Of a DNA stretch of 64,000 nt, positions 41,103-59,481 are shown piece by piece; the first letter of the stretch is position 1; every line of letters starts with the position of its first letter. The position numbers were made by a program, and so were the translations under genes. The notes below the pieces were generated by a model that was given only the letters and a program-made list of their open reading frames with translations, was not told the DNA's origin and did not search any database. This DNA comes from an uncultured Candidatus Binatia bacterium. Its GTDB lineage: Bacteria > Desulfobacterota > Binatia > UBA9968 > JAJDTQ01. The DNA is taken from contig CBDBFB010000004.1 of assembly GCA_965204505.1 (NCBI GenBank), positions 107,449 to 171,448 of the forward strand, read 5' to 3'.

Positions 41103-43046
41103 TCAAATCCCTGTTCCTGCGCGGCCACCAAGGTGTGTGGCGAGGAAGGTTTCCAGACGCCGTGCGAACTCGACGCGGTTCTCCTCCCGACGTATGAGGT
41201 GCCCGTCGTCCGGGAACACCAGATATTCGACCGGGATGTCCTTCTCGCGAAGCTTCGCAACGAATCGGTCCGAGTGTTCCTTGGAAATCGTCCTGTCCTC
41301 GGTGCCGTGGACAATCAACAAAGGCCGTTCGACGCGGTGGGCATAGGTGATGGGGGATCGATCCGTGAGCTCCTCTTTCGCGCCAGTGGCGTCCAGAGCG
41401 TTGGCGAAGCGGTTCCACCAAGCCCCCAATCTCCCACCGCGGGAAAGGGTACTAGCCAGAGCAGCCATATCGGAAAAACCCGCCACGCTGACGCCGGCAG
41501 CGAACTTCCTTGGCGTCCTGGTCATCGCGACGAGTGTTGCGTAACCGCCGTAACTGTGGCCGAGAATGGCGATTTTCACGGGATCCGCATATCCCTCCGC
41601 GATGGCCCAATCCACCGCGTCGATCAAGTCATCTTGCATCTTCCCTCCCAACTCCCCGTACCCTTTCTCCATGAAGGATTTTCCGAAACCGCGCGATCCC
41701 CTGTAGTTGACCTCGAGCACGGCGTAGCCTCGGTTGGCCAGGAATTGGGTTTCCCGATCGAATCTCCAATCGTCCCGCATCCAGGGACCGCCGTGGACCT
41801 TGACGACCAACGGCAAGCGTTTGCCGTCGGCGCCCTTCGGAAGAGTCAGATAACCGCTGATTGAGAGCCCGTCCCGCGCATGGAAGCCGATGGGACGAGT
41901 GGGCGACAGAATATTCTCGTATCCCCTTAGCGGATGGCGGGCGAGGAGTTCCTTCGTTCCAGACCGTCGATCGACGAGGTAGGTGGATGGGCCGGACCGG
42001 TCCGTTTCCGTGCGGATCGCGAGGCGTGTCTGGTCCATACTGCCGTTCACGATGACATTGGCCATCGGTCCCGATCCCAATATCTTCTCCAGATCGTCCC
42101 GTAGCCTGCGGTCAAGGTAATGTTGGCGGGGGAGGGCATCGTGATATCGGATTACCACGGGTTTGTACGCCAGGATGTCCATAAAGTAGCCGGATATATC
42201 CACATTCGGCCTTTCGAAGAGCACTTCCTGTTCGCCCGTGTCCAGATCCAGCATCATGAGCACGGTTTTGTCCAGCCCCCCATTCGTCAGCATGTAGATT
42301 TTGGAACTCTCGTGGGGGATGTACTGGGCGATGTCGATGATGTCTGTGTATTCGCCGGTCAACAGCGGTGACCGGCCGGCCTCGACGCCCTTTCGGACAC
42401 TCCATGCCCCAGCGGTACCACGTTGGAGCAGGCCCAAGATGTCGCCTCTGTCGCTTACAATCCAACGTGAAGTGTCTCCGTGGTTGATTGCCCGCAACGT
42501 GTGCATACCAGTCCTCAGGTCGATTTCGTATAGGTCGTAGACCTCGCGGGTGCGTAGATTCGCCTCCACCAACACTGAATCGGGTTTGGCTGGCGGGAGC
42601 AGAATGGACCGGATGTTTACCCCTTCGAAGGGCAGGAGGTCGCGGGGCTGCTTCTGGGGGGAGTTCGTGTCGGACAAAAACGGGTGGATGTTTATTCGGG
42701 GCCTAACGATGGCGGACAATAGCAGGTGCCTGCTGTCGAGTGCCCACTGGAACGTGAGGATCCGCACGCGATGATTCATCGTGACCGTATGACCGTTTTC
42801 CAGCATCCGAACGCGGAGCGTGGGTCTGCCTTTAATGCGTTCTGTCCAGGCTAGCCTTGTTCCGTCGGGAGAAAGCCGGTGTCCCCGGCTCTCGTTGCCG
42901 CCGGCATAGAACTCGCTTGCGGGAATCAAAGGAGGCAAGTCCGCCTCGCGAAGAGACGGATGAGTAGCCGAGATTTCCCCTGCGTCACCCTTGGAAGAGG
43001 TTGTGATACACAGAGTCAGGAGCAAGACAGCCGCGAGTTGCTTCAT
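41103..43046 (-). CDS. secreted S9-family serine peptidase (prolyl oligopeptidase / DPP-like)
   Basis: Signal peptide MKQLAAVLLLTLCITTSS. Beta-propeller N-domain. GHSYGGYAT nucleophile elbow and a C-terminal hydrolase domain. Confidence 0.85.
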   Translation of the reverse strand: MKQLAAVLLLTLCITTSSKGDAGEISATHPSLREADLPPLIPASEFYAGGNESRGHRLSPDGTRLAWTERIKGRPTLRVRMLENGHTVTMNHRVRILTFQWALDSRHLLLSAIVRPRINIHPFLSDTNSPQKQPRDLLPFEGVNIRSILLPPAKPDSVLVEANLRTREVYDLYEIDLRTGMHTLRAINHGDTSRWIVSDRGDILGLLQRGTAGAWSVRKGVEAGRSPLLTGEYTDIIDIAQYIPHESSKIYMLTNGGLDKTVLMMLDLDTGEQEVLFERPNVDISGYFMDILAYKPVVIRYHDALPRQHYLDRRLRDDLEKILGSGPMANVIVNGSMDQTRLAIRTETDRSGPSTYLVDRRSGTKELLARHPLRGYENILSPTRPIGFHARDGLSISGYLTLPKGADGKRLPLVVKVHGGPWMRDDWRFDRETQFLANRGYAVLEVNYRGSRGFGKSFMEKGYGELGGKMQDDLIDAVDWAIAEGYADPVKIAILGHSYGGYATLVAMTRTPRKFAAGVSVAGFSDMAALASTLSRGGRLGAWWNRFANALDATGAKEELTDRSPITYAHRVERPLLIVHGTEDRTISKEHSDRFVAKLREKDIPVEYLVFPDDGHLIRREENRVEFARRLETFLATHLGGRAGTGI

Positions 43047-43053
43047 GGTCGAC

Positions 43054-43830
43054 CTACACTTTTGGCTTGGTCGGGGTCGCATTGCGTGTTCCGCTGAGAA
43101 AAATCGTACTTCCGAATACGCCCCCGGCGAGATCGCTGAGCAGGAAAGTCGCGGTCGCGGCCACGTTGCGCGTGGGAAGAGTCTGGTCGGCGCGCGACTG
43201 CGTGGAGCTCCCTAGAGCCTCCTGGTTTCCGGAAGTAGCGTGGGATCCGGTGTTCCTTGAAATCGGGGCCGGCCGCAGGATGTTCGCGGTAACGTTGTCC
43301 TTGGCAACGTTCACTGCGATGGACTCTAACCATGCGGACAGCGCGGCAGTCGTGACGGAGTGAAGTTCTCGTTCTAAACGGGTTCCAGCGGCAGGCCACG
43401 GGATCAGCCAGAGAATTCGGCCCCATTGCCGGTCCCGCATGCCGGGCTGAAGCGTTTCGGTCACCACCTTGAAGCGAAGGAACCCCCTGTCGAGTAGGGT
43501 TTGCCAACCCCCCGGCGGCAATACGTTCCTGTCCTCCAATACCGGACGCCGAGAGACCCCGAACAATATGTCGATTGCTCCGAAATCGTCGACGATGCGC
43601 TTGATGAGGACGTTGGTCGATTGCGCGTCCCAGGCGTCGATCCTGTAGCCCTTGGCCCTCACGCCGCTGTTCTCCGCCGCCTCTGAAGCAACCTTCTGCG
43701 CCGCCCACTTCTTGCGGGCGCAGACCGCTACCTCCGTCCCCTCGGCCGCCAGTGCCCCTGCCACGGCGCGGCCAATGCCCCTGGAGCCCCCGAATACCAG
43801 CGCCCGCCTGCCCTTGATGCCGAGATCCAT
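43054..43830 (-). CDS. SDR-family oxidoreductase
   Basis: TGGSRGIG Rossmann motif. Confidence 0.8.
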   Translation of the reverse strand: MDLGIKGRRALVFGGSRGIGRAVAGALAAEGTEVAVCARKKWAAQKVASEAAENSGVRAKGYRIDAWDAQSTNVLIKRIVDDFGAIDILFGVSRRPVLEDRNVLPPGGWQTLLDRGFLRFKVVTETLQPGMRDRQWGRILWLIPWPAAGTRLERELHSVTTAALSAWLESIAVNVAKDNVTANILRPAPISRNTGSHATSGNQEALGSSTQSRADQTLPTRNVAATATFLLSDLAGGVFGSTIFLSGTRNATPTKPKV

Positions 43831-43878
43831 GACAACTTGAGAGTTTAGCTTCGGGCTTGAGAAGCGTCCAAAGCTTGA

Positions 43879-44853
43879 CTACGCGTTCCGTTCGTCACGC
43901 TGCACCATGGCCCTCAGGCTGATGGGGTGTTCCGGGTTCAACTCCCTGAAGCCGGACATGGAAAGCCACACCCTCAAGAGGTGGCGACCCGGTCCATTGC
44001 CGTCCGCGGAGAACTGTGTCCGGGTATGCAAGACCACGTGGTTGTTGAAGTACTCGATGTCGCCCGGTTTGAGGTCTACTCTTAGGGAAACACGGTCGGC
44101 CACATCGTTGAATGCCGCCAGCGCATTGTTCTGAGCCGGAGTCAGCTCCGGAACTCCGGGAAGGCCACGGGCCCGCTTGATGTGGACTCTGTAGGCGCAG
44201 GCATTGAAGAGACCGTTCGTGACGTTCAGGAAGGGCAGGCGGGTCCACTGGCCACCGTGGTCGGGATGCGTTCTGTGCAGCGCCATGTGGAAGGGTTGGG
44301 TGAGGACTCGCAACTGGTCGGGGCATTCCTCTCTCATGACATTGTAGACGGTGACGGCGCTGGCGAACTTGCGGGTTCCGCCCTCGGAGGCGGTATTAAC
44401 GCACAGGAAGCCGATGACGTCTTCGAGGTCGGCGTGGAAGGGGAGCTCTGCGGTGGCGCGAAAACCGTAGCGTCCTTTGCCCTTTCCCTGGGACTCAGCG
44501 CGCACATGGGCGAGCTTGACGCCTCCGGGCTGGTCCATGGGGGTGCCGAGTTGGCGGCTCAGGGCCATGAAGGCCGGCGCCACGCCTTCCTTGCCGAGTT
44601 CCTTGACGGGCAGGCCCCGCAGGATGCGGAAGCCTAAACCCGATTTGAGCTCGCGCACGGTCTTCTCGATCTCGGGCGTGAGAACGGGCAGAGGAGGCGT
44701 CTCCCGTGGTTCTTCGGTCCCTCTGGTTTCCCTCACCACAGCCAGCAACTCCGCCAACTCCCGTCCGGTGAAAGTGTGGCGCCAGGCTTCGGTACCGGCG
44801 AGGTCGTCGGGCTTCCATGCCGCGGGGTCCAGTGCTTTGGGCAGTTGTTCCAT
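43879..44853 (-). CDS. TauD/TfdA-family Fe(II)/2-oxoglutarate dioxygenase
   Basis: HADLED-type facial triad context (...LPFHADLEDVIGF...) and the overall TauD-like pattern. Confidence 0.7.
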   Translation of the reverse strand: MEQLPKALDPAAWKPDDLAGTEAWRHTFTGRELAELLAVVRETRGTEEPRETPPLPVLTPEIEKTVRELKSGLGFRILRGLPVKELGKEGVAPAFMALSRQLGTPMDQPGGVKLAHVRAESQGKGKGRYGFRATAELPFHADLEDVIGFLCVNTASEGGTRKFASAVTVYNVMREECPDQLRVLTQPFHMALHRTHPDHGGQWTRLPFLNVTNGLFNACAYRVHIKRARGLPGVPELTPAQNNALAAFNDVADRVSLRVDLKPGDIEYFNNHVVLHTRTQFSADGNGPGRHLLRVWLSMSGFRELNPEHPISLRAMVQRDERNA

Positions 44854-44895
44854 AATACCGCTCCTGTAGGGACAGCCTCGATTGGTTCGGTCGTT

Positions 44896-46203
44896 TTACT
44901 TCTCCCGGAATGCATCCTGCCTATAACCTCGTAGCGGCTGCAACACGTACTCGATGAGGCGCTGCTTGCCGAGTATGACCGCAGCTTCGGCGGACATGCC
45001 GGGCAGGAGCTCGATCTTTCGGCCCTCGATTTCCATGTAGGTCTGGTCAAGATCGATGAGGGCCTTGAACATGGGGCCGGCCGCTACGCCGGGGGGCGGA
45101 GCCCCTGGACCGCCGGTCTGTGCGCCAGCGTTCACCGCGTCCCTGCCGATGTGGCTGACGGTGCCCTCAATGGCGCCATAGCGTCGGAAGTCGAAGGTGG
45201 CGACCTTGAGGGTGACCCTCTGGCCGGGCTTGATGAACCCGATGTCGGCGTTGGCAACAAGAGCCTCCACCCGAAGACCGGCATCCCTTGGCACGATGAC
45301 CATGAGGCGGGCGCCGGGCTCCACCATGCCGGCTTCGGTGTGGACGGCCAAGTCCTGAACCACCCCGTCCACCGGCGAAAGCAACGTGTGCCGGGTGCGG
45401 TGCTCCCGGGCCTGGCGGATGTCCTGGCGCAGGACGATCATCCTCTCCCGGACGGTGGCGAGGGTGGAGCGGCGCTCCCGGTAGAACTCCGAGACGGTTC
45501 CTTCCTGCTGGGCCTTGAGCGCGGCCAGGGAGGCCCTGGCCTGTACCAGCTCCTGCTTTCGGAGCGCCATGTTGCCTTCGAGCTCCACCAGTCGCTCCTG
45601 CTCGTCGAACAGGTCGAGCCTGGAGCTGTGGTTCTTGCGGTAGAGCTTCTCCTGCATGGCGGTGCGCTCGCGCAGGATGGGCAGGAGCTTCTCGTACTTG
45701 GCAATGCCCGCCCCCAGGGTGCGAAGCTGAGCCCGGCGTTCCCGGAGCAGGCCGTCCAGCTCATGGAGCCGTGCGCGGTGAGCAGCGATCTGGTCCTTCA
45801 GGAGCTTCCGGTTGATGGCCACCATCTCCTTCGGGGCTTCCCGAGGGGCTCGGAAAGGCTTGTCCCCTCGCCATCCCAGGAGGGCTTCGAGCCGGGCGGC
45901 CTCCACCGCCTTGATGCCCAGCTCCGAGGTGTGCTTGGCGATCTCGGCCTCCACCAGGGTGGTGTCGAACTCGATCAGCACCTGCCCCTTCCTGACCGCG
46001 CTCCCTTCCTCCACGGCAATACGCTTGATCTTCCCCTGCTCGAACGACCGGATGGTCTTCACCTGCCCCTTGGGGACGATGCGTCCCGGGGCCACCGCGG
46101 AGAGCTCCACCGCGGCCATGGAAGCCCACGTGAGGGTCGCCGCCAGGAAGACGCAAAGCGCCACCAGCAGCAGGATATCCGCACGACGCCTCGGTCTATC
46201 CAT
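44896..46203 (-). CDS. HlyD-family membrane fusion (type I secretion adaptor) protein
   Basis: N-terminal TM anchor, biotinyl-lipoyl-like KGQVLIEFD, a long coiled-coil, and C-terminal beta-barrel motifs. Confidence 0.85.
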   Translation of the reverse strand: MDRPRRRADILLLVALCVFLAATLTWASMAAVELSAVAPGRIVPKGQVKTIRSFEQGKIKRIAVEEGSAVRKGQVLIEFDTTLVEAEIAKHTSELGIKAVEAARLEALLGWRGDKPFRAPREAPKEMVAINRKLLKDQIAAHRARLHELDGLLRERRAQLRTLGAGIAKYEKLLPILRERTAMQEKLYRKNHSSRLDLFDEQERLVELEGNMALRKQELVQARASLAALKAQQEGTVSEFYRERRSTLATVRERMIVLRQDIRQAREHRTRHTLLSPVDGVVQDLAVHTEAGMVEPGARLMVIVPRDAGLRVEALVANADIGFIKPGQRVTLKVATFDFRRYGAIEGTVSHIGRDAVNAGAQTGGPGAPPPGVAAGPMFKALIDLDQTYMEIEGRKIELLPGMSAEAAVILGKQRLIEYVLQPLRGYRQDAFREK

Positions 46204-48517
46204 CCTGTGCCTTCAGAGGGGTCTGAGCGGCCGCCGCGCCCTCCGTCTCCTCGGGCAGGGCGATGAGGCTCTTGATGTTCTCGGTCTCCCGGTACACGAG
46301 CCGGGCAAAGTACCCGCTGCCCTGGACCAGCTCCGCGGGGGTGCCCTGCTCTACGATCCTGCCCTGGTCGAGACAGATGATGCGATCCGCGTTGCGCAGA
46401 GCGGAGAGGCGGTGGGCGATGACGATGACCGTGTGGTCCCGGCCCAGGGCGCGGATGTTCTCGTGGATCTGCGCCTCATACTCCTTGTCCACCGAGCTCG
46501 TGGCCTCGTCCAGGATCAGCACGCTCCGGAAGTGGAACAGCGCTCGGGCCAGGGCGATGCGCTGGCGCTCTCCCCCGGAGAGAAGCGCGCCCCGGGCGCC
46601 GATGCGGGTGGCGTACCCCTTGGCCGTCCGCGAGATGAACTCATGGGCGCAGGCCGCACGGGCCGCTCCGATCACTTGCGCTATGTGGCGTTTGCCGGGC
46701 TCCAGGGCGATGTTCTCCGCGATGCTCCGCCGGAAGATCGGATAGTCCTGCTCCGCATAGCCGATGTGGCTCCGGAGCCACGCCGGGTCGAGGATGACGG
46801 CATCCGCCCCGTCCAGCAGCACACGCCCCTCGGTGGCTAGATGGAGCCTCTGTATAAGCCGGGTGACGGTGCTCTTGCCCGAGCCCGAGGGACCCACGAT
46901 ACCCAGTGTCTCTCCGGGCTTCACCTCGAAGCTCACCCCGTCCAGGGCGTAGCGCTCATTGTCCGGATACTGGAACCGCACGTTGTCGAAACGGATGTTT
47001 CCCTTGAAGGCCGAGAGCTTCACCAGGTGGCCGCCCTCGCGCTCGGTGGCCTCGTTCAATACCGTTCCAACTTCCTTGATCAAGCCCCGGAGCCGGGAGA
47101 AGTCGTAGGTGAATATGCAGAGCCGCATCATGGGCTGGGAGAAGCGCATGTTCACCAGGTTGACGGCCACCAACTGGCCCAGCGTGAGCTGCCCGTCCAA
47201 CACCATGGACGCTCCGAACCACAGGAGACCGGCGTTGGCGAAACGGTTCACGAACTGGTTGTACTGGGTGGTGGACTCCCGAAGGGTCTGGGTGTCCTCC
47301 TCGGAGGATACGGCCGCGTCCACCCGCTCGGTGAGAAAAGCTTCCTGGGCCTGTTCCTCGTGCATCCCTTTCACGGTCTCGATGCCCCCTACGGTGTCGA
47401 GCACGGCCTCGTTGCTCTCCCGGCGGCTGCCCTTGGTCTGTTTGGTCCACTTGCGCAACGTGGGCAGGACCGCGAAAGCCGGGGCGATGTAGAAGGGCAG
47501 GGATGCCAGGAGGATCAGCGAGAGGGTGAGGCTGAAGTTCAGCATCAGGGCAAGGAACACCAGCACGAAGATCACGTCGACGAACACGAACACCACGGCG
47601 TTGGTGAGGAACCGGCGCAAGTGCTGCAACTCCTCGATCCTCGACAGGGTCTCCACCGGGGTGTTCCGGAGGTAGAAGGAGGCGGGCAGTTCCAGGGAGT
47701 GGCGGATGAGCCTGGAGAGAAGCGAGCGGTCCATGTCCCGAACCGCGTGACGAAGCGCCCTGTGCCGCGCGGCCCGCAGGACCGCCTCGAAGGCGAGGAA
47801 CAGGAGCAGGCTGACGATGATGACGTCGAGGGTGGCCGCGCCCCGGTTGGATATGACCTTGTCGATAATGATGAGGAAGGCGAACGGGTAGAGGTAGCCC
47901 AGGAGGTTCACGAAGAACGAGGTGGCGATGAGCGGGCCGAACACCGCCTTGTTGTCGAACATGTGCTCGGCAATTGAGCGGAGCGTGAAGGCCCGGTCTT
48001 CGGAGTCCGGCGTCTTGGCCTGCAGCGCGACCTCCTCGCCCCACTCCTCCATGAACACCGAGCGCCGGATCGTTCGCGTATTGCCGGTGCGGTGCTCGAC
48101 CAGGTAGACGTGGTCGTCGTCCGCGGCCGCCACGAGCCCGAAGCGGCCGTCCCGGCGTTGCACCAAGGCGAGTCCGGTCAGGTGGCGCCAATCCTCGGGC
48201 GCCATGGACTTGATCTCCAGAGACAGGCCGGCGTGTTCGGCGCAGCGCACGGCGGTCCGGAGGTCGAGGGAGGATTCCTGGCCGAGATCGGCCAGGATTA
48301 CGTCGCGGCTCGCGCGGAGGCTCTCTTCTCTGCAGAGGTACAGAAGGCAGGCTGCTGCCGATGCCGGCGGGTCGACGACCGCCTCCACTGGCGGTCCGGG
48401 TCCGCTGGAACCGCCTGACGGCTTTGCCGATGGACCTGCGTGACCGCCGCCGCGCTCACCGGTGGGTTCGTTCGTGGGCGTCATGGGTGCGCACCAGCAC
48501 GAGACCCTGCTCCTCAA
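46196..48517 (-). CDS. ABC transporter ATPase/permease with N-terminal C39-like peptidase domain (bacteriocin/RiPP exporter type)
   Basis: Cys-containing C39-like N-domain. Six TM helices. Walker A GPSGSGKST, signature LSGGERQR, Walker B ILILDEATS. An 8-nt overlap with hlyD suggests an operon. The true start is possibly at M 48484. Confidence 0.85.
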   Translation of the reverse strand: MRSRVSCWCAPMTPTNEPTGERGGGHAGPSAKPSGGSSGPGPPVEAVVDPPASAAACLLYLCREESLRASRDVILADLGQESSLDLRTAVRCAEHAGLSLEIKSMAPEDWRHLTGLALVQRRDGRFGLVAAADDDHVYLVEHRTGNTRTIRRSVFMEEWGEEVALQAKTPDSEDRAFTLRSIAEHMFDNKAVFGPLIATSFFVNLLGYLYPFAFLIIIDKVISNRGAATLDVIIVSLLLFLAFEAVLRAARHRALRHAVRDMDRSLLSRLIRHSLELPASFYLRNTPVETLSRIEELQHLRRFLTNAVVFVFVDVIFVLVFLALMLNFSLTLSLILLASLPFYIAPAFAVLPTLRKWTKQTKGSRRESNEAVLDTVGGIETVKGMHEEQAQEAFLTERVDAAVSSEEDTQTLRESTTQYNQFVNRFANAGLLWFGASMVLDGQLTLGQLVAVNLVNMRFSQPMMRLCIFTYDFSRLRGLIKEVGTVLNEATEREGGHLVKLSAFKGNIRFDNVRFQYPDNERYALDGVSFEVKPGETLGIVGPSGSGKSTVTRLIQRLHLATEGRVLLDGADAVILDPAWLRSHIGYAEQDYPIFRRSIAENIALEPGKRHIAQVIGAARAACAHEFISRTAKGYATRIGARGALLSGGERQRIALARALFHFRSVLILDEATSSVDKEYEAQIHENIRALGRDHTVIVIAHRLSALRNADRIICLDQGRIVEQGTPAELVQGSGYFARLVYRETENIKSLIALPEETEGAAAAQTPLKAQDG

Positions 48518-49244
48518 GGTGGTTGATCAAGGCCTTGTGCGCTGCTGCTGGAGTGTTCGGAACTATTTTCGGGTCGAGCCGGGTCCACTCAGCAGATCCT
48601 TCCATCAGCGTAAAAGCTTCCGGCGCCACCACCATCACTAGGGGACGGCGGCGTCGGCGCGCTGCCAGCACGGCAACATGCACCTGCCTCCGCTCCACCG
48701 CTTCTCCGCTCCGGGCGGGCTCGAACAGGGGCCGCACGTCGTGCGTGCAGCTTACCAGCAACGCGCACGGGTGGGCGCGGTACCATGAAGACCCAGGCTC
48801 TTCTGGACATCCGGCCTGCGCCTCGTCCTCCATCGCCGCGGGTCGCAGCGTCCGGGATCGGGCCAGCGCCAGCTCTACCGCGGCCACGTCTGCCGCCCAT
48901 GCCGGCATGGTCGGTCTGTGAGCCCAGTTCTCAAGGAAATACTCGAAGAAGCTCTTGGCGTCCGGATACCGCTGGTAGGTCTCGGGCGGGTGCGCCGACG
49001 CGTACTCACGTGTGATCGTCGAAAACCCTTGACCCAAGAGCCCGGCCGTCCGCTCGAAAGATTGGCGGAGTTTGCCCATCCGCTTCTTGTAGGAGAACTC
49101 CGCCTCTAGCCGAAGACGCCCGAGGTCCATGCCGGCAAGCTCCGGGTCCTGAGTTGCGGACTCCAACTCCTCGGTCCCGAAGATGAATGCTGCGCTCGTC
49201 ATGTGGCGCAGCAGCATCGTCTGCCTGTCAATGAGTCGTTGCAT
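48456..49244 (-). CDS. DUF2063-like partner protein (MbnC/TglI/HvfC-like) of the DUF692 enzyme
   Basis: 262 aa, immediately downstream of DUF692 with a 17-nt overlap. Size and position match the conserved DUF692-DUF2063 pairing. Confidence 0.55.
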   Translation of the reverse strand: MQRLIDRQTMLLRHMTSAAFIFGTEELESATQDPELAGMDLGRLRLEAEFSYKKRMGKLRQSFERTAGLLGQGFSTITREYASAHPPETYQRYPDAKSFFEYFLENWAHRPTMPAWAADVAAVELALARSRTLRPAAMEDEAQAGCPEEPGSSWYRAHPCALLVSCTHDVRPLFEPARSGEAVERRQVHVAVLAARRRRRPLVMVVAPEAFTLMEGSAEWTRLDPKIVPNTPAAAHKALINHLEEQGLVLVRTHDAHERTHR

Positions 49245-50115
49245 GGGTTACCGTCGAGGCTCTCGTGGCGGCGGCCCTTGCCACCTGCTCCCGCAGGCGC
49301 GCTACGTCCGCCAGAAGCTCGTCGCCCTTCTCGTAGTCGTTGTCCCGCTCCAGGATGATGGTCCGCGGCTGCTGCCGCCGGAGCGCGTAGCCCAGGATGT
49401 CCAGCGCCTGCTCCGGCACCTGCCGGCTGTGGTTGTCCGCGTAGAACGGCGTATCCAGATACGGCCGGCGAACCAACGGTCCGCCGGCCGCGTGCACTCC
49501 CGTAACTACCCCCTCCGGCATCGCGTCTAGAAACCCACGCGGGTCAACCCCGTGGTTGTGGGAGTTCACGAACAGGTTCTCCACGTCCAGCAGCATCTCC
49601 ATCCCTGTCTCTCGGAACAGCAGGTTGAAAAACTCCGAGTCGTCCATCTCGCTGTCCGGGAAGTCGAACACGTAGGAGATGTTCTCCAGCGAGAACGGCA
49701 CCGGCAGGCGGGACTGCACCTGCTCGATCTTCGGGATCAGTATGTCCGCGACGGCGCGAGTCTTGGGCACCGGTAGCAGGTTGGCCAAGTCGATGTCCGG
49801 AACCTTGGTCCAGGCCAGATGCTCGCTGTAGGACGGTACCTTAAGGTCCTCCACGGCCTCGCACACGCCGTCCAGGTACTCGTCGTCCAGAGGCACGTCG
49901 GTGCCGATGGAAAGACCCACCCCATGCAGCACCAGCGGTATCCTGTCCACCAGGTTCCGGATCGCCCGACGGGTATAGTCGCCGCCCCGGATGTAGTGGT
50001 CGACGGTCACCTCCAGCACGTCGAAACGGTGCAGGTTGGCCAGCGTCCACCTAGCGATGGGAACCCGGAAGCCGATCCCGATAAGGGGTGTTGCATTTGA
50101 GGACGAAAGGCTCAT
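49228..50115 (-). CDS. DUF692 (UPF0276; MbnB/TglH/HvfB-family) TIM-barrel non-heme iron enzyme
   Basis: ...IGIGFRVP...LEVTVDHY...PLVLHGVGLSIGTDVPLDDEYL...SEHLAW...LLPVP...LENISYVFDF...MLLDVENLFVNSHNHGVDP...VHAAGG matches the DUF692 consensus throughout. Confidence 0.85.
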   Translation of the reverse strand: MSLSSSNATPLIGIGFRVPIARWTLANLHRFDVLEVTVDHYIRGGDYTRRAIRNLVDRIPLVLHGVGLSIGTDVPLDDEYLDGVCEAVEDLKVPSYSEHLAWTKVPDIDLANLLPVPKTRAVADILIPKIEQVQSRLPVPFSLENISYVFDFPDSEMDDSEFFNLLFRETGMEMLLDVENLFVNSHNHGVDPRGFLDAMPEGVVTGVHAAGGPLVRRPYLDTPFYADNHSRQVPEQALDILGYALRRQQPRTIILERDNDYEKGDELLADVARLREQVARAAATRASTVTHATTH

Positions 50116-50121
50116 TTTTGT

Positions 50122-50658
50122 TTAGTTCGCGTTTAGTTCTTCTCTAAGCTCGTCCATGGTCTTGCATTCCTCACTCTCATCACGACGGTCCTTTCCATCC
50201 AATATTGCTTGAATGATAGTGACTTCCGGAGGGGCACCGCTAAAGAAACCACCTAGGACAGTCCCACTAGCAGTACCGTAAACTTGCGCTTCGCAGGTTG
50301 CTGTTGCTTCGCTCAAGGCCATAGCGTCGCCACGTTTTCCATCCTCTGTGTCGATGTGATTTTCTGCGGTATCCGCTGCTGCTTGGTTATCGGCGATGGT
50401 CTCGGCGATTGCATCGTTGAGTCCTTCGTCCTGGGTATCCTCAGCGTCGTCGCATCCACAAGACTCGCAAGCGTCACAGCTATCACATCCGCAGTCACAC
50501 CCGCACCCGCACCCGCACCCATGGACCTCCAGGTCAAGGTCGTCGTTTCGAGGGTCGAGCACCCATGGTATGACTATGGAACCGCGCTGAAGGGCGTCAC
50601 GCTGAAGGGCGTCACGCTGAAGGGCGTCACGCTGAAGGGCGTCATTATCCAACTGCAT
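50122..50658 (-). CDS. Cys-Gly-repeat precursor-peptide candidate (RiPP substrate)
   Basis: GGAAAGGGG RBS. Leader with 4x DALQR. Core HGCGCGCGCDCGCDSCDACESCGCDD with 10 Cys, then an acidic ~100-aa tail. It lies directly upstream of the DUF692/DUF2063 genes. Confidence 0.6.
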   Translation of the reverse strand: MQLDNDALQRDALQRDALQRDALQRGSIVIPWVLDPRNDDLDLEVHGCGCGCGCDCGCDSCDACESCGCDDAEDTQDEGLNDAIAETIADNQAAADTAENHIDTEDGKRGDAMALSEATATCEAQVYGTASGTVLGGFFSGAPPEVTIIQAILDGKDRRDESEECKTMDELREELNAN

Positions 50659-50709
50659 CTTGGCACCCCTTTCCTGGGTACCAAATAAAAAAAGGTACCC
50701 ATGTCAATT

Positions 50710-50814
50710 GGGTACCCGCTTCTTGGGTACCCGCTTCTTGGGTACCCGCTTCTTGGGTACCCGCTTCTTGGGTACCCGCTTCTTGGGTACCCGCTTCTTG
50801 GGTACCCGCTTCTT
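50710..50814. promoter_or_regulatory. 7 perfect tandem copies of the 15-bp unit gggtacccgcttctt (palindromic GGGTACCC core), 50-160 bp upstream of the precursor gene
   Basis: Exact repeats at 50710, 50725, 50740, 50755, 50770, 50785 and 50800. Two more GGTACC sites lie at 50677 and 50694. Confidence 0.75.
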
Positions 50815-50823
50815 GCAAGACTA

Positions 50824-51110
50824 TCATGCACAATTCAGGGCTGTCGTCAAGGGCACGATCATCATGGTGCAGGGCGGTTTGATTCTTCGAGGTTTTTTGA
50901 ACAATCCCTTGCGCACTTTCAGAACAAATTCGCCTTGTGGCAGAGGGGCGGGCGAGGTCTGAGGCCCGGTCCTCTGGAGTTGTCGTTCGTAAGCCTCCTG
51001 TGGGGTGGAGCCTGCAAGGGCGGAGTGAGGCCGTTGGGCATTGTACAACTCAAGCCTTTAACATCCTCAAAACCGGCAAGAACAAGATCCAGTACGAGTT
51101 TCATCCTGGT
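50824..51110 (-). pseudogene. rve-family (IS3/IS481-like) transposase C-terminal remnant
   Basis: ...MYNAQRPHSALAGSTPQEAYERQ is the conserved integrase-core tail. The upstream part is frameshifted and truncated. Confidence 0.6.
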
Positions 51111-51563
51111 TCGGTCGCGAACTCAGTGTCCACGGGGTGGTGGAGAAGGGGCTGGGGGTTGTGCGATGGACGTGGCGAGGGGACTTGCAGGAGCGAGCTC
51201 TGGAAGTGCCGCTATGGATGTTCGACCATCTGACCTGTCTGTCTGTGCGTCTTCGGAAGCGTCCGCAAGTCGATCTGGCAGCGCTTGATGCACCGAAGCG
51301 GAAACCCGTGCGCGACGCGGGGGCTTAGTCGCGAAAGTAACCGGAGATTGCACGCGGGGTAGCGATGCGGTGAAGTGACGGTGGCTGGGGGAGTCGAGGC
51401 CGGTTGCTCCCACTGGTGTGCACAGGCACCCGTACTGAAGCATGGCCCGAACCACGATCGGCTTCAGTCACTGATGGCGCGGCTTGGCCGCGACCTCGTT
51501 CGAGAGATTGAGATTTTGCCGTGTGGTTCCTCCCCGGCACACCACAAGGCGGGAGGACTTGGC

Positions 51564-52976
51564 ATGCCACGGAAGAGCAAGAGGACGGAGCGTCTCAGGG
51601 TGGTGAATCCGAACTGCGCGGGGATCGACATCGGCAAGGACCGTCACTACGTGGCGGTGGATCCGGAGCGCTGTGCAGAGCCGGTCCGGTCGTTTGATGG
51701 CTTCACACGGGATCTGAAAGCGATGGCGGCATGGCTGAGATCGTGTGGGGTGAAGAAGGTGGCGATGGAATCGACCTCGGTGTACTGGATCCCGGTGTAC
51801 GAGGTGCTGGAGCGCGCGGGCTTCGAGGTGATGCTGGTGCCGCCGCGGATGACGAAGCAAATTGCCGGGCGCAAGAGCGACGTACTCGATTGCCAGTGGA
51901 TCTGGCAGTTGCTGTCCTACGGCCTTCTGCGGGGCGCGTTCCGGCCCGGGGATGCGATCTGCCCGCTCCGCTCCTACGTGCGCCAGACGAAGCGGCTGAT
52001 CGAGGACCGCGCGCGTTGCGTGCAGCACATGCAGAAGGCTCTGACCGAGATGAACATCCGGCTGGACTCGGTGCTCGCCGAGATCATGGGACAGACCGGA
52101 CAGAAGATCCTGCGGGCGATCATAGGCGGCGAGCGCGACGCGCAACGTCTGGCGTCGTTCCGGGACCGGCGGGTCAAGGCCAGCGGTGACACGATCGCCG
52201 CAAGCCTGGAGGGCACCTGGCGCGAGGAGCACCTGTTCGCGCTGGAGCAGGCCATGCAGCGCTACGACTTCCTCGAACAGCAGATCGAGGACTGCCAGGC
52301 GCAGATCGCGGCGCAGATCGAGGGCCTGACGCCGCCAGGCGGCAGCCCATCCGGGGACGAAGGCGCTGGTGGCGGATCGGCCGGCGAAGGCTGGAAGACG
52401 CTGTCGGGCTCCAGCGGCAGGAAGCCCGCGGCCGGCGACAGGGCCTTGACCATGGCGCTGCACCAGATGATGGGCGTCAACCTCACTGCGATCCCGGCCG
52501 TCGGCATCGGAACCGTCCTGACCATCGCCTCGGAGATCGGTCCGGACTTCTCCGCCTTCCCTTCCGCCAAGCACTTCTGCTCCTGGATGGGGGTGGCGCC
52601 GGGGACCCGGATCAGCGGCGGCAAGCCATTGCCGGGCCGAGCGCCCAAGGTAGTCAACCCGGTAGGGCAGGCGCTTCGGATGGCTGCCGTGGCAGCGCGA
52701 AGGAGCCAGACCTTCATCGGCGCCAAACACCGCGCCCGTCTCGCCCGCAAGGACGCGGCCGTCGCCATCACCGCAACCGCGCGCGAGCTCGCCTGCCTCA
52801 TCTACCTGATGGTGACGCGGGGCGAGGAATACGTCGAGAAGGGCATGGACGCCTATGAGAAGCGGCGCATCGATCGCACCTTCGCCAACCTCAACCGAAA
52901 GGCCCGTACTCTCGGATACCGGCTCGTCCAGGCCGTCGTCCAAGAAGTACCCAACGGCGCTCCAGAAGCAGCCTAG
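51564..52976 (+). CDS. IS110-family transposase (IS1111-like subgroup, 470 aa)
   Basis: GGGAGGA RBS. ...NCAGIDIGKDRHYVAV...VAMESTSVYW... DEDD_Tnp N-domain. C-terminal ...GVAPGTRISGGK... transposase_20-like domain. Confidence 0.85.
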   Translation: MPRKSKRTERLRVVNPNCAGIDIGKDRHYVAVDPERCAEPVRSFDGFTRDLKAMAAWLRSCGVKKVAMESTSVYWIPVYEVLERAGFEVMLVPPRMTKQIAGRKSDVLDCQWIWQLLSYGLLRGAFRPGDAICPLRSYVRQTKRLIEDRARCVQHMQKALTEMNIRLDSVLAEIMGQTGQKILRAIIGGERDAQRLASFRDRRVKASGDTIAASLEGTWREEHLFALEQAMQRYDFLEQQIEDCQAQIAAQIEGLTPPGGSPSGDEGAGGGSAGEGWKTLSGSSGRKPAAGDRALTMALHQMMGVNLTAIPAVGIGTVLTIASEIGPDFSAFPSAKHFCSWMGVAPGTRISGGKPLPGRAPKVVNPVGQALRMAAVAARRSQTFIGAKHRARLARKDAAVAITATARELACLIYLMVTRGEEYVEKGMDAYEKRRIDRTFANLNRKARTLGYRLVQAVVQEVPNGAPEAA

Positions 52977-52984
52977 TTACTCGA

Positions 52985-56099: not shown

Positions 56100-57083
56100 C
56101 TACTCCTTCCCCAGAAACCACGTCGCCAGGTTGTTGAAGTCCTCCGGCTGGTCCAGCCATATGAAGTGGCTGGCCTTGTCGAAGATGTGCATCTGGGCGT
56201 TGGGGATGCTCTTGTAGAGGTCGTAGCCGGGGTCGATGCCCTTGTTGGAGTTGCGCCCCCACATGACCAGGGTCGGGACGCCGATCTTGTGCACGTGGTC
56301 GCGGATGTGGGCGCCGTCGAAGTAGTACATCTCGCTGGCGCCCCGCATGCCGTTCTTCTCCCAGTACTCCTTCCCCTTGTGCTTCATGTAGAGGTCGTTC
56401 CAGCGGGCCGACAGTTCCATCAGGTGGTCCAGGTACTCCTCGGTGACCATGTCCTTGTTGTAGACGAAGGCTCCGACGTACTTGCGGAGGCCCTCCCGGG
56501 TGTTGGTGAGCCCCTCCTTGGGCATCATGGTGCCGGGCTCGAACACGTCCTTGAAGTAGGGCAGGTCGCCGCTGCCGTCCACCTCCACCTGCTGGCCGTC
56601 CACCTCGATGACCTGCCGTCCCTCGCCCGGCTTGCGGATGCCCGACCCCGCGGTGCTGCCGCTGTCGACGAGGATGAGCTTCTTCACCAGGTCCGGCCGC
56701 TTGATGGTGATGTAGGTGACGATCCAGCCCCCCTGGGACTGGCCGATGAGGTTCACCGGCGCCAGGTCCAGGGCCTCGATGAAGCTGATGACGTGGTCCG
56801 CGCGCACGCGCACGTGGCCCAGGTCGTCCAGGTTGCGCGGCGGGTCGGTTTGTCCGTGCCCCAACTCGTCGATGGCATAGACGTGAAGGTGCTCGCCCAG
56901 CGGAACGATGTTCGGGTACCAGCGGTAGTTGCCCATGCCGATCTCGTTGGCCCCGCCGTGGCACATGACGACACGCTCCGGGTTGGATTCGCCGGCCTCG
57001 ATGTAGTGGGTCCTGTAGCCGTCCGCGGTGACGAAGCGGCTATTCCACTTGTCCGGGCTGTTGAAGATGGTTTTCCGTTCCAT
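56100..57083 (-). CDS. alpha/beta-hydrolase fold enzyme (MhpC/BphD-like), paralog 1 of 3
   Basis: Nucleophile elbow GQSQGGW. Lid and C-terminal His region. 327 aa. Confidence 0.8.
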   Translation of the reverse strand: MERKTIFNSPDKWNSRFVTADGYRTHYIEAGESNPERVVMCHGGANEIGMGNYRWYPNIVPLGEHLHVYAIDELGHGQTDPPRNLDDLGHVRVRADHVISFIEALDLAPVNLIGQSQGGWIVTYITIKRPDLVKKLILVDSGSTAGSGIRKPGEGRQVIEVDGQQVEVDGSGDLPYFKDVFEPGTMMPKEGLTNTREGLRKYVGAFVYNKDMVTEEYLDHLMELSARWNDLYMKHKGKEYWEKNGMRGASEMYYFDGAHIRDHVHKIGVPTLVMWGRNSNKGIDPGYDLYKSIPNAQMHIFDKASHFIWLDQPEDFNNLATWFLGKE

Positions 57084-57086
57084 TGA

Positions 57087-58073: not shown

Positions 58074-58136
58074 TTCGTTACCTCCTCCGGGTTCCGGGTC
58101 GTGCCGATGGGAGCCTGTGTTGCGGTGGTCCCCACG

Positions 58137-58385
58137 GGGGGCGACCGCCGGTCGCCCCTACAAAGCCGGTTTCCCTCACGTGCTTCTAGTGTCGTGTCCC
58201 ACGTAAATGTAGACAAATCTGCTGGTCTTTTTCGTCGTCGGCTGCGTTGCTCTTCCTCGCGTGGTAATGGCCACTGCTCGTCATCGCGCCTTGCCGACAA
58301 CGAAAAATCCTGCGCATCTTTGTCAACATTTACGTGGGACACGACACTAGTTCCGCAGACCCTCCGGTAGGGGCGACCGGCGGTC
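58137..58385. repeat. MITE/REP-like composite palindromic element between hydrolase paralogs 2 and 3
   Basis: Outer palindromes ggggcgaccgccggtcgcccc at 58137 and its complement at 58365. Inner 32-bp inverted repeats ctagtgtcgtgtcccacgtaaatgtagacaaa at 58186 and tttgtcaacatttacgtgggacacgacactag at 58321 flank a ~100-bp core. Confidence 0.7.
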
Positions 58386-58398
58386 GCCCCTGTTCGCG

Positions 58399-59373: not shown

Positions 59374-59481
59374 GGAGATGCCTCCTCGGGTGAGTTGCAT
59401 CCCCATGCATATTATTTCGGTAGGGTCGAGGCAACCGGTCGGGTTTCGGCGGATGCGCCGAAGCCGGTCAGGAGAAAAGGG

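What the first reader, a model, noticed from the sequence alone, without database searches (positions are those of the whole stretch)
50122..50658. Precursor gene has a pentapeptide-repeat leader encoded by four perfect 15-bp DNA repeats and an unusually long acidic C-terminal extension
The repeat gctgaagggcgtcac occurs 4 times at 50586-50645 and encodes DALQRDALQRDALQRDALQR (minus strand) near the N-terminus. Perfect nucleotide identity implies recent slippage or selection for copy number. The Cys-rich core sits at residues ~50-75 of 178, followed by ~100 residues rich in D/E (...DTAENHIDTEDGKRGD...ESEECKTMDELREELNAN). A core followed by a long tail is atypical for RiPP precursors. It suggests either a follower peptide or recognition sequence, or that the S9 peptidase trims a larger exported intermediate.
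Basis: seen in the sequence. Interest (0 to 1): 0.6.

Follow-up and report, generated by a model that had tools for sequence, protein, structure and literature searches.

The report
Repeat-expanded leader on MNIO substrate protein
The repeat is real: it is a recent in-frame triplication-plus-one of a 15-base unit in the unconserved start of a rare cysteine-rich protein that an iron enzyme probably converts into a secreted metal-binding protein, and its long tail is a folded, swappable domain rather than a leftover peptide.

Summary
Four perfect 15-bp units (50585-50644) encode (DALQR)4 at residues 6-25 of a 178-aa ORF (50122-50658, minus strand). About 30 relatives all carry one unit, so the window has a lineage-specific +45 bp in-frame expansion. 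It lies in the only unconserved part of the N-terminus.

The ORF is a real member of a rare family (22 representatives in 1.8 billion proteins). Members share four parts:
- a conserved leader, xIVxPWVLDPxxDDLDLE[VI]HG
- a (CG)n/(CS)n cysteine tract
- an acidic linker
- a variable C-terminal domain, which is helical here and Hedgehog-N/LAS-like in others

The gene heads a cluster conserved in Candidatus Binatia: MNIO enzyme, divergent DUF2063-like partner, HlyB/HlyD-type exporter, TauD, SDR, S9 peptidase.

The exporter's N-terminal domain lacks the C39 catalytic Cys (Ser53) and His (Phe126). The proposed C39 cleavage is therefore not supported.

Most likely the protein is an MNIO substrate that is exported whole, and the DALQR expansion is a recent, probably neutral slippage product.

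A second array lies in the 5'UTR: palindromic hairpin units ending in a terminator-like hairpin. It recurs in relatives with 2, 2, 6, at least 5, and 8 units. This array is the more intriguing feature.

Novelty: a new variant of a known kind.

The parts
50823..50850 (-). Promoter-like site TTGACG-16-CATGAT upstream of the precursor gene
   Evidence: Consensus scan. The same TTGAC[AG]...TGTGCAT[CG]ATA box precedes the gene in L001 and L023.
50708..50815 (-). 5'UTR tandem array, [GAAGCGGGTACCCAA] x7.2, 100% identical; each unit holds the palindrome GGGTACCC
   Evidence: TRF. Folds as consecutive 8-bp hairpins. Relatives have 2 (L001, L006), 6 (L022, 14-bp unit) or at least 5 units next to an assembly gap (L023).
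50683..50717 (-). Terminator-like hairpin (last array unit paired with GGGTACC) followed by TTTTTTTATTT, inside the 5' leader
   Evidence: Scan. Consensus P1 helix plus T run in 7 loci.
50662..50682 (-). Hairpin GGTACCC / GGGTGCC with the Shine-Dalgarno-like AGGAAAG in its loop, 3 nt before the start codon
   Evidence: RNA folds. Consensus P2 helix.
50122..50658 (-). Precursor/substrate ORF, 178 aa (stop codon included)
   Evidence: ORF list. The family has 22 representatives. Conserved position ahead of the MNIO gene.
50584..50643 (-). (DALQR)4, residues 6-25, the expanded 15-bp unit (TRF phase 50585-50644)
   Evidence: There is a 45-bp insertion relative to L022, L023, L001 and L006 in DNA alignment A5. 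Predicted helix, pLDDT 77-82.
50518..50580 (-). Conserved leader motif SIVIPWVLDPRNDDLDLEVHG, residues 27-47; candidate recognition sequence for the MNIO partner
   Evidence: W32, E44 and G47 invariant; L34, L41 and H46 nearly invariant in 24-26 sequences.
50452..50517 (-). Cys tract CGCGCGCDCGCDSCDACESCGC, residues 48-69, 10 Cys each followed by G, D or E; partly encoded by a 6-bp microsatellite (50498-50520)
   Evidence: Tract length varies widely among relatives.
50125..50451 (-). Acidic linker (residues 70 to about 77) and predicted four-helix C-terminal domain (78-178), with Cys122 and Cys165
   Evidence: AlphaFold2 helices 78-99, 106-140, 144-161 and 163-177, pLDDT about 80-89. Composition. 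No fold match in PDB.
49228..50115 (-). MNIO enzyme (MbnB/TglH/ChrH family)
   Evidence: PF05114, 240 bits. Nearest NCBIfam models are BufB (195 bits, cut-off 310) and HvfB (176 bits, cut-off 360). Best PDB match 3BWW, 1e-31.
48456..49244 (-). Partner protein, divergent DUF2063-like
   Evidence: The window copy has no Pfam hit. 9 of 11 orthologues hit DUF2063 weakly, best E 3.3e-4.
46196..48517 (-). HlyB-type ABC exporter with a degenerate C39-like N-terminal domain (Ser53, Phe126)
44896..46203 (-). HlyD-family type I secretion adaptor
   Evidence: TIGR01843, 335.6 bits, above the cut-off of 208.65.
43879..44853 (-). TauD/TfdA-family Fe(II)/2-oxoglutarate dioxygenase (candidate tailoring enzyme)
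   Evidence: PF02668. Conserved in the cluster.
43054..43830 (-). Short-chain dehydrogenase/reductase (candidate tailoring enzyme)
   Evidence: Conserved in the cluster.
41103..43082 (-). S9 (prolyl-oligopeptidase family) peptidase with a hydrophobic N-terminal signal-like segment
   Evidence: PF00326. Present in L004, L005, L006, L011 and L023; adjacent to the precursor gene in L006, L011 and L023.

Best explanation
The ORF encodes the substrate protein of an MNIO enzyme and its DUF2063-like partner.

Inferred pathway:
1. The partner binds the conserved N-terminal motif (residues 27-47).
2. The MNIO oxidises cysteines of the (CG)n tract (residues 48-69) to thiooxazole or oxazolone/thioamide-type heterocycles. 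Its nearest characterised relatives (BufB, HvfB) do this, and the product would be a multivalent metal (copper) binding module.
3. TauD and SDR enzymes may tailor the product further.
4. The product, still carrying its folded and lineage-variable C-terminal domain, is exported by an HlyB/HlyD-type type I system. The N-terminal domain of that exporter is a catalytically dead C39-like domain, so the transporter does not cut the leader.
5. Any trimming would fall to the co-conserved S9 peptidase.

The (DALQR)4 segment is a recent in-frame expansion of a 15-bp unit, from one copy to four, produced by replication slippage. It lies in the one part of the N-terminus that is not conserved, so it is most likely tolerated rather than required.

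The expansion is one of three repeat-length polymorphisms at this gene. The others are the 5'UTR hairpin array and the 6-bp microsatellite that encodes CG dipeptides.

Shown: the anatomy, the family membership, the gene neighbourhood, the single-copy state in relatives, and the loss of the C39 catalytic residues. Inferred: the chemistry, the recognition element, the export route, and the neutrality of the expansion.
For: - Repeat and reading frame.
- One unit in all relatives: P0013 MRLDNDSLQSGSIVTPW, P0017, P0001, L005, L006, L017, and L029 (MNIO 91% identical to the window's).. The DNA alignment shows exactly +45 bp.
- Family: 22 representatives with an invariant W32...E44.HGCGC block.
- The gene sits directly upstream of MNIO-partner-ABC-HlyD-TauD-SDR(-S9) in the window, L005, L022, L023, L025 and L029. 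In L001 a small membrane-protein gene lies between the precursor and the MNIO gene.
- MNIO: PF05114, 240 bits; nearest BufB/HvfB; 3BWW 1e-31.
- Partner orthologues hit DUF2063.
- BufB/HvfB-type MNIOs make 5-thiooxazoles on Cys followed by a small residue, and long MNIO substrates are on record (PMC12668002; PMC12452194).
- Exporter: HlyB model best, HlyD model above its cut-off; Cys to Ser53 and His to Phe126.
- The tail is predicted helical with pLDDT about 80-89. It is replaced by other domains in relatives, including a Hedgehog-N/LAS-like domain (profile against PDB, E 5e-5).
Against: - No experiment shows modification, export or metal binding.
- The MNIO scores below the BufB and HvfB equivalog cut-offs, so its chemistry could differ.
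- The window's own partner protein has no Pfam hit.
- The tail carries no RTX repeats or recognisable type I secretion signal, so how a C39-like-domain exporter would recognise it is unknown.
- The AlphaFold2 model rests on 24 sequences, has pTM 0.37, and has no fold match.
- Neutrality of the expansion is an argument from position only. No strain-level relatives of the window were found to show polymorphism.
- The S9 peptidase has a signal-like N-terminus. If it is periplasmic, it would not meet a substrate that a type I system exports in one step.
Confidence: 0.6

Rival explanations
1. Polymorphic secreted toxin or bacteriocin. The conserved leader plus modified Cys tract acts as a trafficking or uptake module, possibly a metallophore mimic. 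The variable C-terminal domain is the effector. The small membrane protein encoded just downstream in some loci is the immunity protein. This overlaps with the best explanation rather than excluding it.
For: - C-terminal domains are swapped among members that share the same N-terminal module.
- Five members carry a Hedgehog-N/LAS-type zinc-hydrolase-like domain.
- The window, P0001 and the type-A tails have Gly/Ala-rich hydrophobic stretches flanked by two Cys.
- A homologous 150-160 aa membrane protein follows the precursor gene in L001 and L002, and lies directly upstream of the MNIO gene in L003, where no precursor gene was found.
- A different gene of about 180 aa follows the LAS-type members.
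- Precursor GC3 is 0.54 against 0.71-0.88 for the cluster genes.
- Null or missing alleles occur in close relatives.
Against: - The window has no membrane-protein gene. The precursor stop and the MNIO start are 6 nt apart, and tblastn finds no copy in the window.
- The window's tail has no detectable similarity to any toxin or structure.
- The same membrane-protein family accompanies two different tail types, which is unlike a cognate immunity protein.
- No toxicity data exist.
Confidence: 0.2
2. Classical RiPP logic. A double-glycine-type leader is cut by the transporter's C39 domain, the Cys-rich core is released as a small peptide, and the acidic tail is a follower that the S9 peptidase removes.
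For: - The invariant ...LE[VI]HG|C junction resembles a cleavage site.
- An S9 peptidase is co-conserved and is often adjacent to the precursor gene.
- The ABC protein has an N-terminal domain distantly similar to C39.
Against: - The catalytic Cys and His are replaced by Ser53 and Phe126, in the window and in L011.
- The peptidase-containing ABC models align only from residue 146 or 176 onward, whereas the HlyB model covers the N-terminal domain.
- The tail is predicted to fold, and in other members it is a recognisable enzyme-like domain. That would be an odd thing to discard.
Confidence: 0.12
3. The DALQR copy number is functional and selected. For example, it could act as a helical spacer that tunes partner binding or export, or as a contingency locus whose length varies within the population together with the 5'UTR array.
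For: - Three independent repeat tracts are concentrated in one gene and nowhere else in 64 kb.
- The segment is predicted to be helical.
- 5'UTR array length varies between relatives.
- The unit length keeps the reading frame.
Against: - None of about 30 relatives has more than one unit.
- The segment is the least conserved part of the N-terminus.
- In-frame units cannot switch the gene on or off.
- No population data are available.
Confidence: 0.1
4. The repeat, or its copy number, is an assembly artefact.
For: - Perfect tandem arrays are hard to assemble.
- The analogous 5'UTR array in L023 ends in a run of N.
Against: - The expansion is exactly three units and in frame, and the surrounding sequence is colinear with relatives.
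- Arrays of other lengths are present in independent long contigs (L022).
- 60 bp is shorter than any read type in current use, so it should be spanned. This last point is my own inference.
Confidence: 0.03

Closest known systems
Bufferins, oxazolins and fontiphorins ('captophorins'): MNIO plus DUF2063 partner installing 5-thiooxazoles on Cys (PMC11626156, PMC11252979, PMC12668002)
   Same: The MNIO's nearest curated models are BufB and HvfB. The partner is DUF2063-like. The substrate is Cys-rich, with each Cys followed by a small or acidic residue. Substrates can be protein-sized.
   Different: The MNIO scores below both equivalog cut-offs. The precursor has no Sec signal peptide, no DUF2282 domain, and no EGKCG or Lys-Cys motif. 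The Cys tract is a (CG)n low-complexity run. Export genes are HlyB/HlyD type I rather than Sec. TauD, SDR and S9 genes are added. The C-terminal domain is variable.
Methanobactins (MbnA/MbnB/MbnC)
   Same: An MNIO acts on Cys in CG/CS contexts of a leader-bearing ribosomal precursor, giving a secreted copper chelator. Some Binatota encode copper membrane monooxygenases (PMC8262859).
   Different: MbnB model scores 37 bits against a cut-off of 325. There is no MbnC. The precursor is 178 aa with 10 tract Cys, rather than about 30 aa with 2 modified Cys. There are no MATE exporter or TonB receptor genes in the cluster.
'Adjamnio-I' putative precursors (Antoine et al. 2025, PMC12452194)
   Same: The published description fits: 122-293 residues, 8-21 Cys, no signature, and gene order precursor-MNIO-PME type 2.
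   Different: Identity could not be checked. The alignments are held only as images, and no motif or taxon string matched in the supplements. The paper does not mention type I secretion, variable C-terminal domains or repeats.
HlyB/HlyD type I secretion with a C39-like domain (HlyA paradigm)
   Same: The ABC protein matches the HlyB subfamily model best and aligns with HlyB over residues 111-732. The N-terminal domain lacks the nucleophile, as in HlyB. The HlyD adaptor scores above its cut-off.
   Different: The substrate has no RTX repeats. HlyB keeps the His, whereas here it is Phe. No outer-membrane component lies in the cluster.
Class II microcins and double-glycine bacteriocins exported by C39-ABC transporters (CvaB, LcnC)
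   Same: A small acidic or Gly-rich secreted protein with an N-terminal leader, encoded next to an ABC/HlyD pair. Some loci also have a small membrane protein in the position of an immunity gene.
   Different: The transporter's peptidase residues are lost. The leader has no GG, GA or GS junction. The substrate is expected to be modified by an MNIO.

Membership tests
MNIO-dependent RiPP/protein modification system | MNIO (PF05114, MbnB/TglH/ChrH) enzyme encoded next to the substrate gene | tested here: met
   PF05114 at 240 bits against a cut-off of 25. The gene starts 6 nt after the ORF's stop codon.
MNIO-dependent RiPP/protein modification system | Partner protein (DUF2063/PME) encoded after the MNIO gene | tested here: inconclusive
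   The window protein has no Pfam, NCBIfam or PDB sequence hit. 9 of 11 orthologues (55-78% identical) hit DUF2063 weakly, best E 3.3e-4.
Bufferin/oxazolin (captophorin) class | MNIO is a BufB or HvfB equivalog | tested here: not met
   NF050167 scores 195 bits against 310. NF003818 scores 176 bits against 360.
Bufferin/oxazolin (captophorin) class | Precursor with a Sec signal peptide and a DUF2282, EGKCG or Lys-Cys/Cys-Lys motif | tested here: not met
   No Pfam or NCBIfam hit. The N-terminus MQLDNDALQRD... is hydrophilic (GRAVY -1.11). There is no Lys in or next to the Cys tract.
Methanobactin | MbnB equivalog and MbnC partner | tested here: not met
   TIGR04159 scores 37 bits against 325. 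No MbnC signature was found.
Double-glycine leader / peptidase-containing ABC transporter (C39) | Catalytic Cys and His in the transporter's N-terminal domain | tested here: not met
   In alignment A4 with LcnC-like, CvaB-like and HlyB proteins, Cys aligns to Ser53 and His to Phe126. PF03412 scores 16.5 bits against 22.
Type I secretion (HlyB/HlyD type) | HlyD-family adaptor and HlyB-subfamily ABC protein | tested here: inconclusive
   TIGR01843 scores 335.6 bits, above its cut-off of 208.65. TIGR01846 is the best ABC model at 552 bits but is below its cut-off of 725.55.
Type I secretion (HlyB/HlyD type) | Substrate with a C-terminal secretion signal or RTX repeats; TolC-like outer-membrane partner | not tested
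   No GGxGxDxUx nonapeptides are visible in the sequence. Type I signals have no reliable sequence model. The window was not searched for a TolC-like gene.
Pentapeptide-repeat proteins (PF00805) | A(D/N)LXX repeats matching the Pfam model | tested here: not met
   No Pfam hit at E up to 0.01. The unit DALQR has A and D in the opposite order, and there are only four units.
Adjamnio-I (PMC12452194) | Sequence membership in that similarity-network cluster | not testable with these tools
   Length (178 aa), Cys count (12) and gene order fit Table 2 of the paper. The alignments are images only.

The most novel reading that the evidence does not exclude
A family of type-I-secreted fusion proteins in which a ribosomally made, MNIO-oxidised poly-(Cys-Gly) tract forms a multivalent copper-binding (chalkophore-like) module. 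This module is covalently attached to interchangeable effector domains: a helical membrane-active type and a LAS/Hedgehog-like hydrolase. Expression and valency would be tuned by three hypervariable repeats at the gene:
- a 5'UTR array of hairpin units feeding a terminator-like attenuator
- the in-frame leader repeat
- the CG-encoding microsatellite

This would amount to a metallophore-guided polymorphic effector system with contingency-locus behaviour in uncultured Binatia.
Probability: 0.15. Interest if true: 0.85.

Novelty: new variant of a known kind. Interest (0 to 1): 0.55.

Why it matters
MNIO enzymes are a fast-growing source of new peptide chemistry, and so far their substrates are mostly short or Sec-exported. 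This family would add several things:
- A (CG)n tract that could carry ten or more heterocycles in a row.
- A dedicated type I exporter with a dead peptidase domain.
- A protein-sized, swappable C-terminal domain.

Together these blur the line between RiPPs and post-translationally modified secreted proteins.

For the finding itself, the value is practical. The true recognition element is probably residues 27-47. The DALQR segment can probably be trimmed to one unit for expression work. A C39 cleavage assay would be wasted effort.

The 5'UTR hairpin array is a candidate new cis-regulatory leader whose unit number differs even between close relatives.

Tried and rejected
- A protein-pattern scan of JGI metagenome contigs with the family alignment gave 131 pattern matches, and none was confirmed. 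A degenerate DNA pattern then found four loci, all with one leader unit.
- Exact-sequence look-ups of the window's MNIO and of its 100%-identical database entry P0024 found no contig. Strain-level copy-number variation of DALQR therefore could not be tested.
- The nearest MNIO relatives are 91% identical. L029 has one unit, and L028 has a transposase in place of the precursor gene.
- A Foldseek search of the model against PDB gave nothing below E = 4. The AFDB library was unavailable.
- Rfam gave only a sub-threshold microRNA match to the 5'UTR array (34 bits against 70), which I treat as spurious.
- The N-terminal domain of the ABC protein alone, and the partner protein alone, gave no meaningful PDB sequence hits.
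- The adjamnio-I alignments could not be read.
- I considered and rejected membership in the Pentapeptide-repeat family, an active C39 peptidase, a Sec signal peptide, and the tail as enzyme-recognition sequence (it is too variable while the enzymes are conserved).
- I looked for sequence similarity between the two 15-bp units by eye and found none convincing.
- The even number of palindromes before the T run (2, 2, 6, 8) rests on too few cases to mean anything yet.
Full report
**1. The observation**

The minus strand of 49900-50900 carries an ORF at 50122-50658 of 178 aa. Tandem Repeats Finder reports a 15-bp unit in 4.0 copies at 100% identity at 50585-50644.

In the reading frame the units are GAC GCC CTT CAG CGT three times, then GAC GCC CTT CAG CGC. 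They encode DALQR four times at residues 6-25 (nt 50584-50643).

The repeat has to be translated. There is an in-frame stop 48 nt upstream of ATG 50658. The only other in-frame starts are TTG at codon 3 and GTG at codon 33. GTG33 would remove the conserved SIVIPW motif that begins at residue 27.

The Cys tract is residues 48-69, with ten Cys each followed by G, D or E. The tail (70-178) is 26% Asp+Glu, with pI about 4.05.

**2. The ORF is a real gene of a rare family**

A word-indexed search of 5.8 billion proteins found only two relatives. A full HMMER profile search of 1.84 billion representatives found 22. Further members came from six-frame searches of related loci.

All members share the same plan:
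- a short variable N-terminus, often starting MQL
- the block x-I-V-x-P-W-V-L-D-P-x-x-D-D-L-D-L-E-[VI]-H-G, with W32, E44, G47, C48, G49 and C50 invariant
- a run of CG, CS or CD dipeptides of very different lengths
- an acidic stretch
- a C-terminal region of 40-250 residues that cannot be aligned across subgroups

The window's tail is closest to P0001 (50% identity over two thirds of the query).

**3. The repeat is a lineage-specific expansion**

Where the window has MQLDN-(DALQR)4-GSIVIPW, relatives have one unit:
- P0013: MRLDNDSLQSGSIVTPW
- P0017: MQIHNDSVQSGSIVVPW
- P0001: MQLRKDFTESDSIVVPW
- L029: MQLHDDSLQHGSIVIPW. This is the relative whose MNIO is most similar to the window's, at 91%.

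A DNA alignment with four relatives shows a clean 45-bp insertion in the window and colinear sequence on both sides, including the start codon.

The expansion falls in the only unconserved part of the N-terminus. The copies show no synonymous divergence. The simplest reading is therefore recent replication slippage that is tolerated.

AlphaFold2 predicts the segment as a helix (residues 5-25, pLDDT 77-82). That is no evidence of function. I could not test polymorphism within the window's own species, because no sequence closer than 91% exists in the collections.

**4. Neighbourhood**

Downstream on the same strand lie:
- an MNIO (PF05114, 240 bits)
- a 262-aa protein with no domain hit
- an ABC transporter
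- a HlyD-family adaptor
- a TauD-family dioxygenase
- an SDR
- an S9 peptidase

This order is conserved at 60-90% identity in Candidatus Binatia MAGs and in one alphaproteobacterial MAG. A family member sits immediately upstream of the MNIO gene in L005, L022, L023, L025 and L029. In L001 a small membrane-protein gene lies between them.

The nearest curated MNIO models are BufB and HvfB, both below their cut-offs. The best solved structure is the Haemophilus DUF692 protein 3BWW. The 262-aa protein is a divergent DUF2063-type partner: 9 of 11 orthologues hit PF09836, best E 3.3e-4.

Published work shows that BufB/HvfB/FonB-type MNIOs with DUF2063 partners turn Cys into 5-thiooxazoles that bind copper and prefer a small residue after the Cys (PMC12668002). 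It also notes that some MNIO substrates are protein-sized (PMC12452194).

That survey lists an uncharacterised group, 'adjamnio-I', with 122-293 aa, 8-21 Cys and the order precursor-MNIO-PME type 2. This fits the present family, but I could not verify it because the alignments are images.

**5. The transporter is not a C39 peptidase**

The NCBIfam HlyB subfamily model covers residues 57-745 and scores best (552 bits). The peptidase-containing bacteriocin and NHLP exporter models align only from residues 146 and 176. Pfam C39 reaches 16.5 bits, below its cut-off of 22, and starts at profile position 13.

I fetched three reference proteins from plasmid records: annotated HlyB, a Lactococcus peptide cleavage/export ABC transporter, and a Salmonella peptidase-domain ABC transporter. 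I aligned their N-termini with the window protein.
- The catalytic Cys (DCG / ECG) aligns with Ser53. HlyB has Tyr at this position.
- The catalytic His (PHYYV / SHFVV / RHFIL) aligns with Phe126.
- The alphaproteobacterial orthologue in L011 shows the same two substitutions.

The domain is therefore a C39-like domain without a catalytic dyad, and leader removal by the transporter is not expected. A second cluster subtype (L007-L010, L012) lacks this domain altogether and has no family member next to the MNIO gene.

**6. The tail**

AlphaFold2 with a 24-sequence alignment gives mean pLDDT 71.5. The leader motif and Cys tract are unstructured (pLDDT 50-67). Four helices at 78-99, 106-140, 144-161 and 163-177 have pLDDT about 80-89. 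No fold match was found in PDB.

Across the family the tail is replaced wholesale:
- One subgroup ends in ...NDESFxKAxETLLVVH (P0002-6, P0010, L015-L018).
- Another carries a domain whose five-sequence profile matches Hedgehog N-terminal (LAS zinc hydrolase fold) structures at E 5e-5, with the H-x6-D and H-x-H residues aligned.

The enzymes are 78-91% identical across loci while the tails are unrelated. The tail is therefore a poor candidate for the enzyme-recognition sequence, and the conserved N-terminal block is the better one (inference). The tail looks like a modular, exchangeable domain.

Other observations fit cassette exchange:
- The precursor gene has GC3 of 0.54, against 0.71-0.88 for the seven cluster genes.
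- Two genomes with about 99.4% identical flanks differ at this gene. L004 lacks 332 bp that cover the 5'UTR array, the start codon, the leader and the Cys tract. It also has about 100 extra bp near the 3' end.
- L003 keeps the cluster but has no precursor gene beside it.
- L028 has a transposase gene directly upstream of the MNIO gene.

Because intact members are far more common and strongly conserved in the leader, this shows turnover of the gene rather than a spurious ORF.

**7. Mechanism proposed**

Shown:
- the anatomy and the family
- the gene order
- the single-unit ancestral state
- the dead peptidase domain

Inferred:
- The partner binds residues 27-47.
- The MNIO oxidises tract cysteines to thiooxazole or oxazolone/thioamide-type groups, giving a multivalent metal-binding module.
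- TauD and SDR enzymes tailor the product.
- The HlyB/HlyD system exports the whole protein.
- The S9 peptidase, which has a hydrophobic signal-like N-terminus and is adjacent to the precursor gene in L006, L011 and L023, may trim it.

Some Binatota encode copper membrane monooxygenases (PMC8262859). This gives a possible need for copper handling, but it is context only.

A toxin or bacteriocin reading of the variable domain is a serious, non-exclusive rival. A homologous small membrane protein is encoded just after the precursor gene in L001 and L002, and directly upstream of the MNIO gene in L003. The window has none.

**8. Seen on the way: a variable hairpin array in the 5' leader**

Between a promoter-like site (50850 to 50823) and the start codon lie:
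- seven perfect 15-bp units GAAGCGGGTACCCAA (50708-50815)
- a further GGGTACC followed by TTTTTTTATTT
- GGTACCC-AGGAAAG-GGGTGCC, three bases before the ATG

As RNA this folds into four 8-bp hairpins, the last of which is terminator-like. A fifth hairpin holds the Shine-Dalgarno-like sequence in its loop (-83 kcal/mol, z = -7.8).

Relatives have the same layout with different unit numbers and even different unit sequences:

| Locus | Units before the T run | Note |
|---|---|---|
| L001 | 2 | |
| L006 | 2 | GGGTGCC units, self-complementary only through G-U pairs, that is only as RNA |
| L022 | 6 | 14-bp units |
| L023 | at least 5 | next to an assembly gap |
| L025 | 2 | diverged palindromes |
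| L026 | 2 | palindrome changed to GGGCGYCC |

A seven-sequence consensus fold keeps both helices, with three pairs changed on both sides. The gene upstream is divergent in L001 and L022, so this hairpin is not another gene's terminator. No Rfam family matches.

This looks like a conserved attenuator-type leader whose 5' half is a variable-number tandem repeat.

**9. Verdict**

It is partly wrong: there is no active C39, and the tail is a folded variable domain rather than a follower.
- The DALQR expansion by itself is a minor, probably neutral curiosity.
- The family and its locus architecture are an uncharacterised variant of MNIO-dependent maturation. The family may already be catalogued in silico as adjamnio-I.

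Noticed in passing
window 50662-50850 (minus strand); L001 430-538; L006 about 6640-6826; L022 5850-6000; L023 5760-6000; L025 about 2260-2460; L026 about 560-718: The 5' leader of the precursor gene holds a variable-number array of 14-15-bp units. Each unit contains a GGGTACCC-type palindrome, with 2 to 8 palindromes before a T run. The array ends in a terminator-like hairpin plus T run, followed by a second hairpin with the ribosome-binding site in its loop. Both helices are kept in seven loci despite sequence changes, including G-U-only variants. No Rfam family matches. This is a candidate new attenuator-type leader RNA.
   Followed up: partly
window 50498-50520: A perfect 6-bp microsatellite (TGCGGG on the coding strand, 3.8 copies) encodes part of the CG tract. 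Tract length differs greatly among relatives, from about 5 to about 13 CG dipeptides. The number of modifiable Cys is therefore itself a length polymorphism.
   Followed up: partly
L004 9282-9285 versus L022 5873-6204: Two Binatia genomes have about 99.4% identical flanks, but one lacks 332 bp that cover the 5'UTR array, start codon, leader and Cys tract of the precursor gene. It also carries about 100 extra bp near the gene's 3' end. This is a strain-level null allele beside an intact cluster.
   Followed up: yes
window 50122-50658 versus 41103-50115: The precursor gene has GC3 of 0.54, while the seven downstream cluster genes have 0.71-0.88. The precursor cassette is compositionally foreign to its own biosynthetic genes.
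   Followed up: no
L001 1139-1597; L002 706-1191; L003 9552-10001: A homologous 150-160 aa multi-pass membrane protein with no family assignment is encoded between the precursor and the MNIO gene in some relatives, in the position of an immunity or accessory gene. It is absent from the window.
   Followed up: partly
L026 719-3194; L027 1104-3633: Family members with the Hedgehog-N/LAS-like C-terminal domain are followed by a gene of about 180 aa with no domain hit and by an FGE-sulfatase-family gene. This hints at a different or additional cysteine-modifying enzyme in that subgroup. The contigs are too short to see whether an MNIO gene is nearby.
   Followed up: no
L007, L008, L009, L010, L012 (ABC match starts at query residue 156-174): A second subtype of the cluster (MNIO 78-82% identical) has an ABC exporter without the N-terminal C39-like domain. 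An amidohydrolase gene lies upstream of the MNIO gene, and no (CG)n precursor is within 10 kb. Its substrate is unknown.
   Followed up: no
window 38949-41092 and 50824-54818: The cluster is bracketed by mobile-element genes. On one side are a tyrosine integrase (38949-40037) and a RecG fragment containing only the C-terminal helicase part (40316-41092). On the other side are a transposase-like remnant (50824-51048, YNAQRPHSAL motif, no Pfam hit), an IS110-family transposase (51375-52976) and a group II intron reverse transcriptase/maturase (53442-54818).
   Followed up: partly
window 56100-59406 (minus strand): Three tandem paralogous alpha/beta-hydrolase genes (327, 328 and 335 aa).
   Followed up: no
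window 59482-60000 (minus strand); repeat 59602-59799: A 172-aa protein built on six imperfect 33-bp (11-residue) repeats, QDFAEFKAE-like, 83% identical, with a weak apolipoprotein-like helical-repeat hit.
   Followed up: no
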